From Pedobacter sp. (GTDB taxonomy: Bacteria > Bacteroidota > Bacteroidia > Sphingobacteriales > Sphingobacteriaceae), in assembly GCA_965219295.1 (NCBI GenBank), contig OZ244731.1, positions 2,296,236-2,360,235 of the forward strand: a DNA stretch of 64,000 bases, in the 5' to 3' direction. This document shows, piece by piece, positions 3,675 to 26,921 of the stretch. The position numbers and the translations under genes were made by a program. Numbering within the stretch: the stretch's first letter is position 1; each line of letters starts with the position of its first letter. The notes under the pieces were generated by a model that was not told the DNA's origin, searched no databases, and saw nothing but the letters and a program-made list of their open reading frames with translations.

Positions 3675-3675
3675 C

Positions 3676-3860
3676 CCCATCATTAGGGGTGCCTTGTTTG
3701 TAAAACACAAAGACAGGCTGAGAACATACCCATTTTGAGGCGAAAGGTAAAAAGGCGAAAGGTAAAAGGTAATGCGTATGCAACAACCTTAAACCCTAAA
3801 CCTCTAAACCCTATTCCTTAAATGCACCTGATCCGGATAATGCCGGCGTAGGGATTGGAG
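3676..3860 (+). promoter_or_regulatory. TPP riboswitch carrying a ~90-nt inserted hairpin
   Basis: AGGGGTGC...GGCTGAGAACATACCC, then an insert at 3732-3823, then ACCTGATCCGGATAATGCCGGCGTAGGGA. A downstream GCGTA-CCCC-TACGC hairpin can alternatively pair with the aptamer 3' end. Confidence 0.9.
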
Positions 3861-3926
3861 TTATGGAAGTTTAACTAAAATTGGGCGTACCCCTACGCGC
3901 AATGGGTTTAACTAAAAAACAAAACA

Positions 3927-24875: not shown

Positions 24876-25622
24876 GTGCCAAAGCTAACCGTAATTACCA
24901 TTGTTTTTAACAATGTTCGAGATATAGAACGAACCATGAAATCTGTAGTCGGGCAATCCTTTACCGACATAGAATATATAGTTATTGATGGCGCATCTAC
25001 AGATGGAACTTTAGAAATCATCACGCGTTACCGCGATAAAATTTCCAAAATGATCAGTGAGCGCGATGGTGGAATTTACTTCGCCATGAATAAAGGTTTA
25101 AAATCTGCCACAGGCGATTTTGTTTTATTTATGAATTCTGGGGATGAAATTTATGATGCCAAAACGGTGGAACGAGTATTTTCAGTGGCAACCGATGCAG
25201 ATATTTATTACGGTGAAACAGAAATGTACAACGATAGTTGGCAGAGCTTAGGTTGTAGAAGGCATAGAGTCCCAGATAAATTTAATTGGCGAAGTTTTAA
25301 ATACGGAATGAGTGTAAGTCACCAAGCTATCTATATCCGCAAATCTATTATCTCACCTTATGATACTTCTTATAAATACAGCGCCGATATAGATTGGATT
25401 ATTCGCGCAGCAAAAAAGGCAAAAAAAATAGCAAAGGTAGATGGTTATGTAGCTAAGTATTTGGTTGGTGGGATAAGCAAGAAAAAACATCGCGAAAGCT
25501 TAATAGAACGATACAAAATCTTTAAAAAATATTATGGGTTTGTACCGAACATATTTAACCATTTTATAATTGCTTTAAATTTGGCCTGGCATAAGTTGTG
25601 GCATAAGGAGATGAGGGACTAG
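24876..25622 (+). CDS. Glycosyltransferase family 2
   Basis: IDGASTDGT, GIYFAMNKG and NSGD motifs. Confidence 0.9.
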   Translation: MPKLTVITIVFNNVRDIERTMKSVVGQSFTDIEYIVIDGASTDGTLEIITRYRDKISKMISERDGGIYFAMNKGLKSATGDFVLFMNSGDEIYDAKTVERVFSVATDADIYYGETEMYNDSWQSLGCRRHRVPDKFNWRSFKYGMSVSHQAIYIRKSIISPYDTSYKYSADIDWIIRAAKKAKKIAKVDGYVAKYLVGGISKKKHRESLIERYKIFKKYYGFVPNIFNHFIIALNLAWHKLWHKEMRD

Positions 25623-25625
25623 TTT

Positions 25626-25665
25626 AATTGATAGTGGATAATGAATAATTGATAATGGATAATTT
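25626..25665 (+). repeat. Left heptamer array (AATTGAT-type, about 5 units)
   Basis: AATTGAT AGTGGAT AATGAAT AATTGAT AATGGAT AATTT. Confidence 0.75.
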
Positions 25666-25668
25666 AGT

Positions 25669-26029
25669 ATGGCGGAGAATGTTATAAAGGTTAAATCTTT
25701 TGAGTTTGCATTGAGGATTGTTTAATTAAATGTTTTCCTTACCAAAAATAAAAGTGAGTATGTCATGAGCAAACAATTACTAAGAAGCGGTACTGCTATC
25801 GGGGCTCTGGTTCGTGAGGTAGAGCAAGCCGAAAGTAAAGTCGACTTTATCCACAAATTAGTAATTGCTTTGAAGGAAGCAAAACGAAACAGACTATTGG
25901 ATAGAACTGCTATTTTAAGCAAATTACCTCGAGGAAGCAGCTTAATCTTCTATAAAAACCGATATTTTAGAATTATTAAAACTACTAGTAAGCATCATAA
26001 AAACTACGAAAGGAAATGCCAAAAAATAA
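25669..26029 (+). pseudogene. Four-helix-bundle (23S rRNA IVS protein/bAvd-like) pseudogene
   Basis: MAENVIKVKSFEFALRIV* then SKQLLRSGTAIGALVRE..AES..DFIHKL.IALKEA, a +1 frameshift at 25881-25884, then NETDYWIELL with further stops. Confidence 0.85.
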
Positions 26030-26208
26030 ACCGGAAGCTTTCGATCATCAGCGATAATTCTACAAGAGTATCAATTACCAATTATCAATTAGTTGATATG
26101 CATCATAAAAACTACAAAAAGCAATGCCCATAGATAAACCTAACCTTTCCATCATCAGTAATGCCTTATTGGAGCAATATCAATTGTCAATTGTCAATTT
26201 TCAATTAG
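25992..26208 (+). repeat. Imperfect tandem duplication (25992-26092 and 26100-26208), each copy ending in a (CAATTNN)n array
   Basis: Both copies start GCATCATAAAAACTAC and share AATGCC, ATAAACC, ATCATCAG and a terminal CAATTAG. Confidence 0.75.
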
Positions 26209-26921
26209 CCAACAGATTTAATGCGTTAAAAGATGCCGAAATAAGTACGTATACCTTTAGTTTTTATACCTCGGTTTCTGCCATAGCTAGCAGCAAAATA
26301 GAGGGCGAACAAATGGAAATAGACAGCTATGTAAAACACAAGATGTTAAACATAGCATATTTAGAAGATCTAATAGAGAAACCAAACGACTTATATGAAG
26401 CTTATCTTTTTGCACAGAAAAATAAGTTAACCAAAGCCAATTTTTTAAAAGCGCATAAACTTATTAGCGCCCACTTACTGCCTCCGCTTAAAAGAGGAAA
26501 ATACCGAAAAGTAAATATGCTTGTAATGGAGCATAACACAGGTAAAATACAATTCGAAGCTGCCGGCTGGAGCGAAGTTGCGCAGCTGATGAAAAAACTT
26601 TGGGGTGATGTTGCGACGCTCTTAAAACAAAGGCTAAGCGTAGAAGAAGTATTTTATTACGCAGCCTACATTCATTTGGTATTCGTAAATATTCATCCTT
26701 TCGAAGATGGCAACGGCCGTGCCGGGCGACTTTTGGAAAAATGGTTTATCTCCGAAAAACTTGGCAAACAAGCTTGGTTTTTACAAAGCGAACTCAACTA
26801 TTACCGCCACGTAAACGACTATTACAAAAACCTAAATAAACTTGGTGTTTTTTACGAGGAACTTGATTATGGAAAGGCATTGCCTTCTTTACTCATGCTA
26901 CCGAAATCGTTTTTACCATAA
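26124..26921 (+). CDS. Fic-domain protein with an N-terminal inhibitory motif
   Basis: HPFEDGNGRAGR catalytic motif; SSKIEG matches the (S/T)xxxE(G/N) alpha-inh motif. Confidence 0.85.
   Translation: MPIDKPNLSIISNALLEQYQLSIVNFQLANRFNALKDAEISTYTFSFYTSVSAIASSKIEGEQMEIDSYVKHKMLNIAYLEDLIEKPNDLYEAYLFAQKNKLTKANFLKAHKLISAHLLPPLKRGKYRKVNMLVMEHNTGKIQFEAAGWSEVAQLMKKLWGDVATLLKQRLSVEEVFYYAAYIHLVFVNIHPFEDGNGRAGRLLEKWFISEKLGKQAWFLQSELNYYRHVNDYYKNLNKLGVFYEELDYGKALPSLLMLPKSFLP

What the first reader, a model, noticed from the sequence alone, without database searches (positions are those of the whole stretch)
25626..26092. Four-helix-bundle gene bracketed by inverted heptamer arrays: a candidate hairpin-cassette mobile element
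Seen: left array AATTGAT AGTGGAT AATGAAT AATTGAT AATGGAT (25626-25665) begins 3 nt after the GT2 stop. Right array ATCAATT ACCAATT ATCAATT (26070-26090) is its reverse complement, and a four-helix-bundle ORF (now broken) lies between. Established: this family (TIGR02436) is related to proteins encoded in 23S rRNA intervening sequences, which are excised from a long RNA stem, and to DGR Avd. Inference: a non-transposase cassette whose transcript forms a stem looping out the gene, possibly processed by RNase III and spread through an RNA or recombination route. The TPP insert and solo arrays would be non-autonomous relatives. I know of no mechanistic description.
Basis: partly seen in the sequence, partly recalled or inferred. 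Interest (0 to 1): 0.7.

Follow-up and report, generated by a model that had tools for sequence, protein, structure and literature searches.

The report
Decayed heptamer-armed four-helix-bundle gene cassette
A broken small gene of the family first found inside ribosomal-RNA intervening sequences lies between mirror-image arrays of a 7-base repeat, and relatives show that this gene-plus-arms unit is an insert that enters gaps between genes, shifts to neighbouring gaps and decays into the bare repeat arrays that litter the genome.

Summary
The gene is a TIGR02436/PF05635 pseudogene with three premature stops and one frameshift. A third array lies inside the neighbouring Fic reading frame.

The pattern is general. 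In this genome 11 of 12 family genes have cassette-specific inverted arms, each with its own repeat unit. In the genus the figure is 70 of 106.

In the arginine operon of 33 relatives the cassettes fill gaps patchily. A clade without the gene family has gaps of -3 to +7 nt. The arms begin about 1 nt after the upstream stop codon and end about 6 nt before the downstream start codon, so the arms are the ends of the insert.

Cassette lineages sit in different neighbouring gaps in different species. Gene-less hairpins and "gene tail plus right array" stubs are deletion products.

An RNA route finds no support. There is no reverse transcriptase, no excess of sense-strand G:U pairs, and no difference between sense and antisense stem strength. 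One filled/empty allele pair points to recombination between direct arrays.

The scan has noted this cassette type in many other genomes. The relocation and decay series are the new evidence here.

The parts
24876..25622 (+). Upstream host gene, glycosyltransferase family 2. Its stop codon lies 3 nt before the left arm.
   Evidence: ORF list. Pfam PF00535 E 3.4e-21. Conserved in genus relatives at about 72% nt identity, with a different downstream neighbour in each and no arrays.
25626..25665 (+). Left arm: five 7-nt units (AATTGAT / AATGGAT type), G>C on the sense strand.
   Evidence: (TRF score 50). Its polarity matches 40 of 44 armed cassettes in the genus.
25669..26029 (+). Four-helix-bundle (TIGR02436/PF05635) pseudogene: about 120 codons, three premature TAA stops (25723, 25916, 25943) and a +1 frameshift near 25885.
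   Evidence: Aligned by eye to intact homologues G006:C35 (L190) and G034:C33 (L192).
26070..26090 (+). Right arm 1: three units ATCAATT ACCAATT ATCAATT, the reverse complement of the left arm.
   Evidence: duplex -17.5 kcal/mol, z -2.75.
25989..26096 (+). Decayed upstream copy of a 108-nt tandem duplication. It holds the last about 12 codons of the four-helix-bundle gene, a dead copy of Fic codons 1-13 that now runs into a stop, and an array.
   Evidence: Direct repeats D1, D2 and D6, 84-88% identical at 107-109 nt spacing. Translation compared with Fic homologues.
26097..26207 (+). Downstream copy of the duplication. It holds a four-helix-bundle tail relic (26097-26123), the live Fic start at 26124, and right arm 2 (26180-26206, TCAATTG x3.9) translated as Fic codons 19-28.
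   Evidence: The MFE fold of 25615-26215 pairs the left arm with this array. Duplex -24.2 kcal/mol, z -4.1.
26124..26921 (+). Downstream host gene, a Fic-domain protein. Its N-terminus is real, and the array lies within it.
   Evidence: Pfam PF02661 E 5.5e-15. Homologues in 24 other genomes of the class align from residue 3-10. N-termini compared. No homologue turned up in the genus relatives searched.
3675..3871 (+). TPP riboswitch whose P3 stem is replaced by an 88-nt hairpin built of 7-nt arrays. This is a gene-less relative of the arms.
   Evidence: Rfam RF00059 E 6.2e-6, 37.5 bits, below the gathering score because of the insert. The array hairpin is present in 11 relatives, and a plain 32-nt P3 in G055.

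Best explanation
The feature is a decaying copy of an insertable gene cassette. The layout is G-rich heptamer array, short leader, four-helix-bundle gene (TIGR02436/PF05635), spacer, then the complementary C-rich array.

Shown:
- The arrays are the termini of the inserted DNA.
- The cassette sits exactly between the stop codon of one gene and the start codon of the next co-directional gene.
- It is mostly inherited vertically.
- Cassette lineages, arms included, have been copied or moved, mainly into neighbouring gaps.
- The cassette decays by deletion into gene-less hairpins, stubs of gene tail plus right array, and solo arrays.

Inferred:
- Movement and loss run through DNA recombination or replication slippage between arrays of like unit, which act as portable homology.
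- They do not run through an RNA intermediate or a cassette-encoded transposase.
- The transcript, read through from the host operon, can fold so that the stem base brings the upstream stop codon next to the downstream start codon.
- By analogy with 23S rRNA intervening sequences, RNase III may cut that stem.

The role of the protein is unknown. In the window copy the gene is dead, and only the arrays and a partial tandem duplication that reaches into the Fic gene remain.
For: Generality:
- 12 family genes in the genome. All but one have arm pairs above the 95th percentile of 132 mismatched pairs, each with its own unit.
- In the genus 70 of 106 cassettes are armed.
- The left arm is G>C in 40 of 44, and the upstream gene is co-oriented in 62 of 66.

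Insert and ends:
- In the arginine operon of 33 relatives, cassettes occupy gaps g2|g3, g3|g4, g4|g5, g8|g9 and g9|g10 patchily.
- Eleven genomes without the family have gaps of -3 to +7 nt.
- Arms start a median 1 nt after the stop codon and end a median 6 nt before the start codon (n=20).

Decay series in one gap: intact, broken, tail plus right array, gene-less inverted arrays.

Movement:
- A clade with 95/98 support joins g4|g5 cassettes of two species with g3|g4 cassettes of five others. They are 84-89% aa identical and share the arm family.
- One lineage occurs in g8|g9 and in g9|g10.
- Of 88 cassette pairs >=70% identical elsewhere in the genus, 15 do not share both flanks, and 5 of those lie on the other side of the same gene.
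- G013 and G005 hold the same cassette (80% nt) in gaps B|C and A|B, between genes 85-90% nt identical.

Recombination:
- The empty A|B allele equals the filled one minus [one G-array + leader + gene], and the junction lies inside the array.
- 16 of 106 cassettes have direct arrays as well.

No RNA route:
- No PF00078 match in a 98.8% complete one-contig genome.
- No strand signature in the arms.

Link between arrays and genes, as period-7 arrays per 200 kb:
- 0 and 0 in two far-clade genomes without the family.
- 0 and 6 in two near-clade genomes without it.
- 6, 8 and 9 in three genomes with it.
Against: - No near-identical copies exist within any genome. The best within-genome pair is 71% aa, so nothing is moving now, and every 'move' could be an old duplication followed by reciprocal loss.
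- No enzyme and no target duplication were found.
- A third of the cassettes have no detectable arms.
- Arrays outnumber the genes 14 to 1 in this genome (168 against 12).
- G049 keeps arrays without any family gene, so arrays may also spread or arise on their own.
- The recombination junction rests on one allele pair.
- The strong polarity relative to transcription (31:5 and 30:8) is not explained by a purely DNA-level model.
- The window locus itself has no clean empty allele, because the neighbours of GT2 differ in every relative.
Confidence: 0.6

Rival explanations
1. RNA-level element. The arms are kept by selection because the operon transcript folds into a long stem that RNase III cuts, releasing or silencing the small gene as in 23S rRNA intervening sequences. 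Copies spread through an RNA intermediate.
For: - Same protein family and same stem-plus-heptamer layout as the Coxiella IVS, which RNase III cuts at the first heptamer (PMC4990558).
- The cassette gene is co-oriented with the upstream gene in 62 of 66 cases.
- Arm polarity follows the direction of transcription.
- An array hairpin sits in the P3 stem of a TPP riboswitch, an RNA that must fold.
- In the window the sense duplex with right arm 2 (-24.2 kcal/mol) beats the antisense one (-14.0).
Against: - No reverse transcriptase in the genome.
- Across 44 armed cassettes, sense G:U mismatches are fewer than A.C mismatches (104 against 163).
- Sense and antisense duplex energies do not differ in 91 cassettes (42 against 49, p 0.87).
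- Arms are only about 80% complementary, and transversions are the commonest mismatch class.
- The whole window cassette folds no better than shuffles (z -1.35).
Confidence: 0.25
2. No cassette unit. Period-7 arrays are autonomous simple-sequence repeats, like cyanobacterial STRR or the Xanthomonas GGGAATC repeats. They arise by slippage at gene ends, G-rich after stop codons and C-rich before start codons. Small foreign genes such as the four-helix-bundle genes merely happen to lie between two of them.
For: - 168 arrays against 12 genes, with the general polarity rule holding genome-wide, as reported for other phyla (PMC4692102).
- Arrays occur in the rRNA spacer and in a riboswitch.
- Neighbouring arrays in some gaps are not complementary, for example AAGGTGT with CTTGATA in g8|g9.
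- G049 has arrays but no family gene.
Against: - The arms flanking a given gene match each other far better than arms of other cassettes (11/12 and 70/106 above the 95th percentile).
- The arm family travels with the gene lineage between gaps.
- Gene-less hairpins and solo arrays in the arginine operon still carry the 3' tail of the gene.
- Far-clade genomes without the gene family show no arrays in 400 kb and have tight gaps.
Confidence: 0.13
3. Chance resemblance, or a diversity-generating-retroelement Avd gene with unrelated repeats.
For: - The family is related to Avd. A paralogue scores 32.6 bits on the Avd model.
Against: - That score is far below the 80-bit cut-off.
- No reverse transcriptase anywhere in the genome.
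- Chance is excluded by the Markov and shuffle controls.
Confidence: 0.02

Closest known systems
ORF-bearing intervening sequences of 23S rRNA (Coxiella burnetii helix 45, Leptospira; Warrier et al. 2016, PMC4990558; Ralph and McClelland 1993, as cited there)
   Same: - Same protein family (S23p, PF05635/TIGR02436).
- The ORF is enclosed by terminal complementary sequences that form a stem.
- Tandem heptamers, variable in number, lie at the 5' end.
- The ORF is often decaying.
- It was long suspected to be a former mobile element with no known enzyme.
   Different: - It lies between protein-coding genes of ordinary operons, not in an rRNA helix. The three 23S genes here are uninterrupted.
- The arms are whole arrays of degenerate heptamers, about 80% complementary, rather than a near-perfect 28-bp stem.
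- RNase III excision is unproven here.
- There are many copies per genome, each with its own unit.
Intergenic heptamer repeats: GGGAATC in Xanthomonas, GGGGAYT and STRR in Nostoc (Rehm et al. 2015, PMC4692102)
   Same: - Period 7.
- Enriched between co-directional ORFs.
- G-rich strand just after the stop codon and C-rich just before the start codon.
- 70-75 convergent (inverted) pairs per Xanthomonas genome.
   Different: - That work tied the repeats to G-quadruplexes, not to any gene family.
- Most units here (AATTGAT, TACGATT, GAGATTT) cannot form quadruplexes.
- Here the arrays are shown to be arms and relics of a gene cassette.
MITEs and other TIR-bounded non-autonomous elements
   Same: - Small.
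- Bounded by inverted termini.
- Found in intergenic gaps.
- Gene-less derivatives outnumber full copies.
   Different: - No shared terminal sequence between copies.
- No target-site duplication.
- No near-identical copies.
- No known transposase.
- The termini are tandem arrays.
Integron gene cassettes (attC)
   Same: - A promoter-less single gene plus a foldable imperfect inverted repeat.
- Expressed from host transcription.
   Different: - Arrays lie on both sides rather than one attC.
- Cassettes are scattered in housekeeping operons instead of stacked beside an integrase.
DGR accessory protein Avd
   Same: - Distantly related four-helix-bundle fold family.
   Different: - Below the equivalog cut-off.
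- No reverse transcriptase and no template/variable repeats.

Membership tests
TIGR02436 / PF05635 four-helix-bundle (23S rRNA IVS protein) family | Profile score above the curated cut-off | tested here: met
   A 45-aa fragment of the window scores 34.8 bits against a cut-off of 24. The whole region read through a stop scores 43.2 bits against 33.8. The intact homologue L190 scores 99.4 bits.
TIGR02436 / PF05635 four-helix-bundle (23S rRNA IVS protein) family | Single-domain protein of about 110-130 aa with an intact reading frame | tested here: not met
   The length fits (about 120 codons, 25669-26029), but there are three premature stops and one frameshift. It is a pseudogene.
TIGR02436 / PF05635 four-helix-bundle (23S rRNA IVS protein) family | Four-helix-bundle fold | not tested
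   No structure was predicted. The fold is inferred from family membership only.
ORF-bearing 23S rRNA intervening sequence | Inserted in a 23S rRNA helix (9, 25 or 45) | tested here: not met
   It lies between GT2 and Fic genes. None of the 12 copies is in an rRNA gene. The 23S genes are 2901 nt and match the model end to end.
ORF-bearing 23S rRNA intervening sequence | Terminal complementary sequences that enclose the ORF in a stem-loop | tested here: met
   for the window. 11/12 in the genome and 70/106 in the genus.
ORF-bearing 23S rRNA intervening sequence | Excision from the precursor RNA by RNase III | not testable with these tools
Indirect tests for an RNA-specific signature were negative.
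DGR Avd | Equivalog score, with a neighbouring reverse transcriptase and template/variable repeats | tested here: not met
   NF033474 scores 32.6 bits against a cut-off of 80. No PF00078 match in the genome.
MITE / TIR transposon | Target-site duplication, and many near-identical copies sharing one terminal sequence | tested here: not met
   No duplication at filled against empty gaps. Arm units differ between copies. The best within-genome pair is 71% aa identical.
Intergenic heptamer simple-sequence repeats (Rehm 2015 type) | Period-7 arrays enriched between co-directional ORFs, G-rich after the stop codon and C-rich before the start codon | tested here: met
   76% of 168 arrays lie in the 13.7% of the genome that is intergenic. 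Polarity is 31:5 and 30:8.
Integron gene cassette | Cassettes stacked next to an integrase, each with one attC | tested here: not met
   Copies are scattered in housekeeping operons such as arginine biosynthesis, with arrays on both sides. The integrase was not searched for.

The most novel reading that the evidence does not exclude
The heptamer-armed four-helix-bundle cassette is a mobile element of a new kind that needs no transposase. Its tandem-heptamer arms serve as portable homology. A unit of gene plus one array integrates into array hairpins and excises from them by recombination or slippage. Its decay products are the main source of period-7 repeat arrays in bacterial genomes (STRR-type repeats included) and of the ORF-bearing intervening sequences of 23S rRNA.
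Probability: 0.3. Interest if true: 0.85.

Novelty: new variant of a known kind. Interest (0 to 1): 0.62.

Why it matters
The intervening sequences of 23S rRNA and their S23p gene have lacked an origin and a function for about thirty years. The abundance of heptamer repeats in bacteria is likewise unexplained.

This genus links the two. It offers tight ancestral gene junctions, filled gaps, lineages that change gap, and a graded decay series ending in bare arrays, all within one conserved operon.

That makes the questions testable in a culturable Bacteroidota-like genus:
- Does the stem get cut?
- Does it preserve coupling between the flanking genes?
- Do arrays mediate excision and integration?
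- What does the protein bind?

It also warns annotators that arrays can be written into real coding sequence, here the Fic N-terminus and the argD C-terminus.

Tried and rejected
1. An empty-site allele for the window locus itself. GT2 is conserved in the genus, but its downstream neighbour differs in every relative and Fic was not found in any of them, so no clean comparison exists.

2. RNA-seq evidence for processing.

3. G:U against A.C asymmetry as proof of an RNA stem. The result was negative or reversed (38:45; 104:163). Registers in periodic arrays are ambiguous, so this is weak evidence either way.

4. Sense against antisense duplex energy. No difference.

5. I first read the second copy (26097-26207) as a pure cassette relic. 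Rejected: Fic homologues show that codons 8-28 are genuine Fic sequence, so the duplication includes the Fic 5' end.

6. I first read G013 against G005 as a very recent hop, because the flanking proteins are 98-99% identical. Corrected: nucleotide identity is 85-90% for the flanks and 80% for the cassette, so the event is as old as the species split.

7. Direct arrays flanking the gene as a general rule. They occur in only 16 of 106 cassettes.

8. Phage carriage. No phage record matches at 1e-8. Plasmid matches are nearly all cyanobacterial megaplasmids.

9. Strict exact-type inverted pairing of arrays genome-wide found only 14 pairs, because the arms are degenerate. That analysis was not pursued.

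Full report
**What is in the window**

The coordinates and letters of the finding are exact. The GT2 gene (24876-25622, PF00535) ends with TAG at 25620-25622. After three bases come five heptamers, AATTGAT AGTGGAT AATGAAT AATTGAT AATGGAT (25626-25665). Their reverse complement, ATCAATT ACCAATT ATCAATT, lies at 26070-26090.

Tandem Repeats Finder reports three period-7 arrays:

| Position | Copies | Score |
|---|---|---|
| 25625-25663 | 5.6 | 50 |
| 26072-26091 | 2.9 | 33 |
| 26180-26206 | 3.9 | 47 |

The repeat finder pairs the left array with both right arrays at 73-84% complementarity. This is not chance:

- An order-3 Markov genome of the same size holds 5 period-7 arrays scoring at least 35, against 174 real ones. 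It holds none scoring at least 50, against 62.
- The arm duplexes are -17.5 kcal/mol (z -2.75) and -24.2 kcal/mol (z -4.1) against shuffles.

**The gene between the arms**

It belongs to the four-helix-bundle family. PF05635 scores 43.2 bits when a stop is read through. A 45-residue fragment scores 34.8 bits on TIGR02436, whose cut-off is 24.

I read it against intact homologues from G006 (L190) and from another genus, G034 (L192). It is about 120 codons long, from ATG 25669 to TAA 26027-26029. Its lesions are:

- a premature TAA at codon 19 (25723-25725),
- a +1 frameshift near 25885,
- two further TAA stops (25916-25918 and 25943-25945).

It is a pseudogene.

**The right side of the cassette**

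The right side is more complicated than the finding says. A 108-nt segment is duplicated in tandem, 25989-26096 and 26097-26207, at 84-88% identity. Each copy holds the last dozen codons of the four-helix-bundle gene, an ATGCC start, and an array.

Fic homologues in 24 other genomes of the class align from residue 3-10. Their N-termini match the window protein through the array region. So the downstream copy is the live 5' end of the Fic gene, and the array 26180-26206 is translated as Fic codons 19-28. The upstream copy is a dead duplicate.

The minimum-energy fold of 25615-26215 pairs the left array with this outer array. The whole sequence, however, folds no better than shuffles (z -1.35).

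**The pattern in this genome**

The complete genome (3.97 Mb, one contig) holds 12 matches to PF05635. Printing their flanks shows inverted arrays of 7-8-nt units around nearly all of them, and each has a different unit: GGTGTTTA, GGGTTAG, GTCGGAA, CAGTTAT, TACGATT, GAGATTT and others.

True left/right pairs score 37.3 on average. The 132 mismatched pairs score 22.9 +/- 3.8. Eleven of the twelve true pairs exceed the 95th percentile of the mismatched set. The only high mismatched pairs come from two paralogous cassettes 4 kb apart that share GGGTTAG arms.

The arrays are therefore specific to each cassette and are not a shared recognition sequence.

**Arrays genome-wide**

There are 168 period-7 arrays. 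Of these, 76% lie in the 13.7% of the genome that is intergenic.

In co-directional gaps the polarity is strong:

- Arrays next to the upstream stop codon are G>C on the sense strand, 31 to 5.
- Arrays next to the downstream start codon are C>G, 30 to 8.

Rehm et al. described the same polarity for GGGAATC repeats in Xanthomonas, with 70-75 inverted pairs per genome and no gene family named (PMC4692102).

**Filled and empty sites**

The window locus has no clean empty allele. GT2 is conserved in the genus, but what follows it differs in every relative.

The arginine operon, which holds three cassettes in this genome, gave the comparison instead. I fetched it from 33 relatives.

- Cassettes, always on the operon strand, occupy gaps g2|g3, g3|g4, g4|g5, g8|g9 and g9|g10 in a patchy way.
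- In eleven genomes of a more distant clade that lack the family altogether, the same gaps are -3 to +7 nt, for example an ATGA overlap at g4|g5.
- In 20 armed cassettes the left arm starts a median 1 nt after the upstream stop codon, and the right arm ends a median 6 nt before the downstream start codon.

The arms are therefore the ends of the inserted DNA. No target duplication is visible.

**The decay series**

The single gap g4|g5 shows every stage:

- intact cassette (five species),
- broken gene (one species),
- the 3' tail of the gene plus the right array only (six species; L036 is a near copy of the tail in intact L037),
- inverted arrays with about 90 nt between them that still include the tail (two species),
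- short plain gaps.

Solo arrays and gene-less hairpins are therefore deletion products, at least here. In this genome the left array of the g4|g5 cassette has become the 3' end of the argD reading frame. This mirrors the array inside Fic.

**Movement**

Cassette lineage does not follow gap.

- The g4|g5 proteins of G000 and G006 are 84-89% identical to the g3|g4 proteins of five other species. They form one clade with them at 95/98 support.
- The label g3|g4 needs at least three changes on the tree, and g4|g5 needs two.
- Their arms belong to the same AAGGTTT/AAACCTT family.
- Species with the lineage at g3|g4 keep its tail-plus-array relic at g4|g5.
- A second lineage, with TACGATT arms, sits at g8|g9 in two species and at g9|g10 in a third, 85% identical.

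Elsewhere in the genus I compared 88 cassette pairs that are at least 70% identical:

| Flanks shared | Pairs |
|---|---|
| Both flanks | 73 |
| One flank | 6 |
| Opposite sides of the same gene | 5 |
| None | 4 |

The clearest case involves three genes A, B and C that are 85-90% nt identical (98-99% aa) in G013 and G005. The cassette, 80% nt and 93-94% aa identical, lies in B|C in G013 and in A|B in G005.

The G013 A|B gap holds a gene-less hairpin of the same GAGATTT/TCTCAAA unit. It aligns with both the array upstream and the array downstream of the G005 gene. The two alleles thus differ by exactly [one G-array + leader + gene], and the junction lies inside the array. This is what recombination or slippage between direct arrays would produce.

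Direct arrays accompany the inverted ones in 16 of 106 cassettes. One example is the intact homologue of the window gene in G006.

Against active mobility, no two cassettes within a genome exceed 71% protein identity. These events are therefore old, and each could be a duplication followed by reciprocal loss.

**RNA or DNA?**

- The genome has no match to the reverse-transcriptase family. This also rules out a DGR, as does the Avd model score of 32.6 bits against a cut-off of 80.
- If selection kept a sense-strand RNA stem, G:U mismatches should outnumber A.C mismatches. They do not: 38 to 45 in the first set and 104 to 163 in 44 armed cassettes. Transversions are commoner still, and the arms are about 80% complementary.
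- Duplex energies of sense and antisense transcripts do not differ in 91 cassettes (42 against 49, p 0.87).

Three things still speak for a role of transcription:

- The gene is co-oriented with its upstream neighbour in 62 of 66 cases.
- Arm polarity follows the direction of transcription.
- An array hairpin replaces the P3 stem of the TPP riboswitch at 3675-3871. Eleven relatives have it too, while G055 has a plain 32-nt P3.

**Arrays and the gene family across genomes**

In the genus, 23 of 41 sampled genomes hold the family. Period-7 arrays in 200-kb samples number as follows:

| Genome group | Arrays per 200 kb |
|---|---|
| Two far-clade genomes without the family | 0, 0 |
| Two near-clade genomes without the family | 0, 6 |
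| Three genomes with the family | 6, 8, 9 |

This fits arrays as a legacy of cassettes. The sample is small and the genomes are related.

**Known relatives and the literature**

The closest described thing is the ORF-bearing intervening sequence of 23S rRNA. In Coxiella, an S23p gene lies in a 28-bp stem with two to three tandem GACAGAT heptamers at its 5' end. RNase III cuts at the first heptamer, and the element has long been suspected to be a former mobile element (PMC4990558).

Here the three 23S genes are uninterrupted, and the cassettes sit in ordinary operons.

Full-text searches found no paper that ties this gene family to heptamer arrays outside rRNA. No phage record holds a relative. 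Plasmid relatives are nearly all on cyanobacterial megaplasmids. One of them lies between cas6 and cas4, flanked by (AAAAGCT)16 and (AAAAGCC)10.

Earlier notes of this scan describe the same cassette type in many other genomes and list movement as unseen.

**Verdict**

The window copy itself is a dead remnant. The class it belongs to is a new variant of the IVS kind. Its mode of spread is probably DNA recombination through its arrays, and the function of its protein is unknown.

Noticed in passing
window 3675-3871: A TPP riboswitch (RF00059, 37.5 bits, below the gathering score) has its P3 stem replaced by an 88-nt hairpin of 7-nt arrays (AAAGGTA-type 5' arm, AAACCCT-type 3' arm). The arms share only the GGT/ACC core, so the helix would be interrupted by A-rich loops. 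Eleven near-clade relatives have an insert of 90-101 nt, two of them of another, AT-rich type. G055 has a plain 32-nt P3.
   Followed up: partly
window 26124-26207: A heptamer array (TCAATTG x3.9) is translated as codons 19-28 of an intact Fic gene. Gain or loss of one unit would shift the frame. No Fic homologue turned up in the genus relatives searched, so the gene may be horizontally acquired. A Fic homologue in another genus (L052) is also preceded by a heptamer array.
   Followed up: partly
L024, L026, L034, L036 (g4|g5 gaps); L028, L032, L034 (g2|g3 gaps): A different palindromic element (cgtcattgcgaggcacgaagcaatc ... gattgcttcgtgcctcgcaatgacg) has replaced the left part of decayed cassettes in several relatives. 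A second type (gtcaccctgaacttgtttcaggg ...) sits in other gaps. These are MITE-like repeats competing for the same gaps.
   Followed up: no
G000:C1:3777016-3777986 and the two other rRNA operons: The 16S-23S spacer holds three heptamer arrays (CTTGATA, AACCAAC, AAGTATA). A CCCCCAA array lies upstream of the 16S gene and a TATACCC array after the 23S gene. The 23S genes themselves have no intervening sequence.
   Followed up: partly
L019 (G012) g8|g9 gap, 509 nt: About three tandem copies of a roughly 130-nt unit, each made of GAGTCTT arrays plus a conserved spacer, fill one arginine-operon gap without any four-helix-bundle gene.
   Followed up: no
L013 (G000:C1:3322735-3322780): The left array of the g4|g5 cassette has been absorbed into the 3' end of the argD reading frame, so the protein now ends ...GKEVEGKSFRA. 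In G006 the stop codon precedes the array.
   Followed up: partly
L211 (Pseudanabaena plasmid NZ_CP112875.1, 45571-47315): A four-helix-bundle gene between cas6 and cas4 is flanked by (AAAAGCT)16 upstream and (AAAAGCC)10 downstream in direct orientation. An inverted AGCTTTT array lies further upstream.
   Followed up: no
G000:C1:3842401-3842444: Six perfect CCCTAAA units, the same letters as the plant-type telomere repeat. Probably just one more heptamer array.
   Followed up: no
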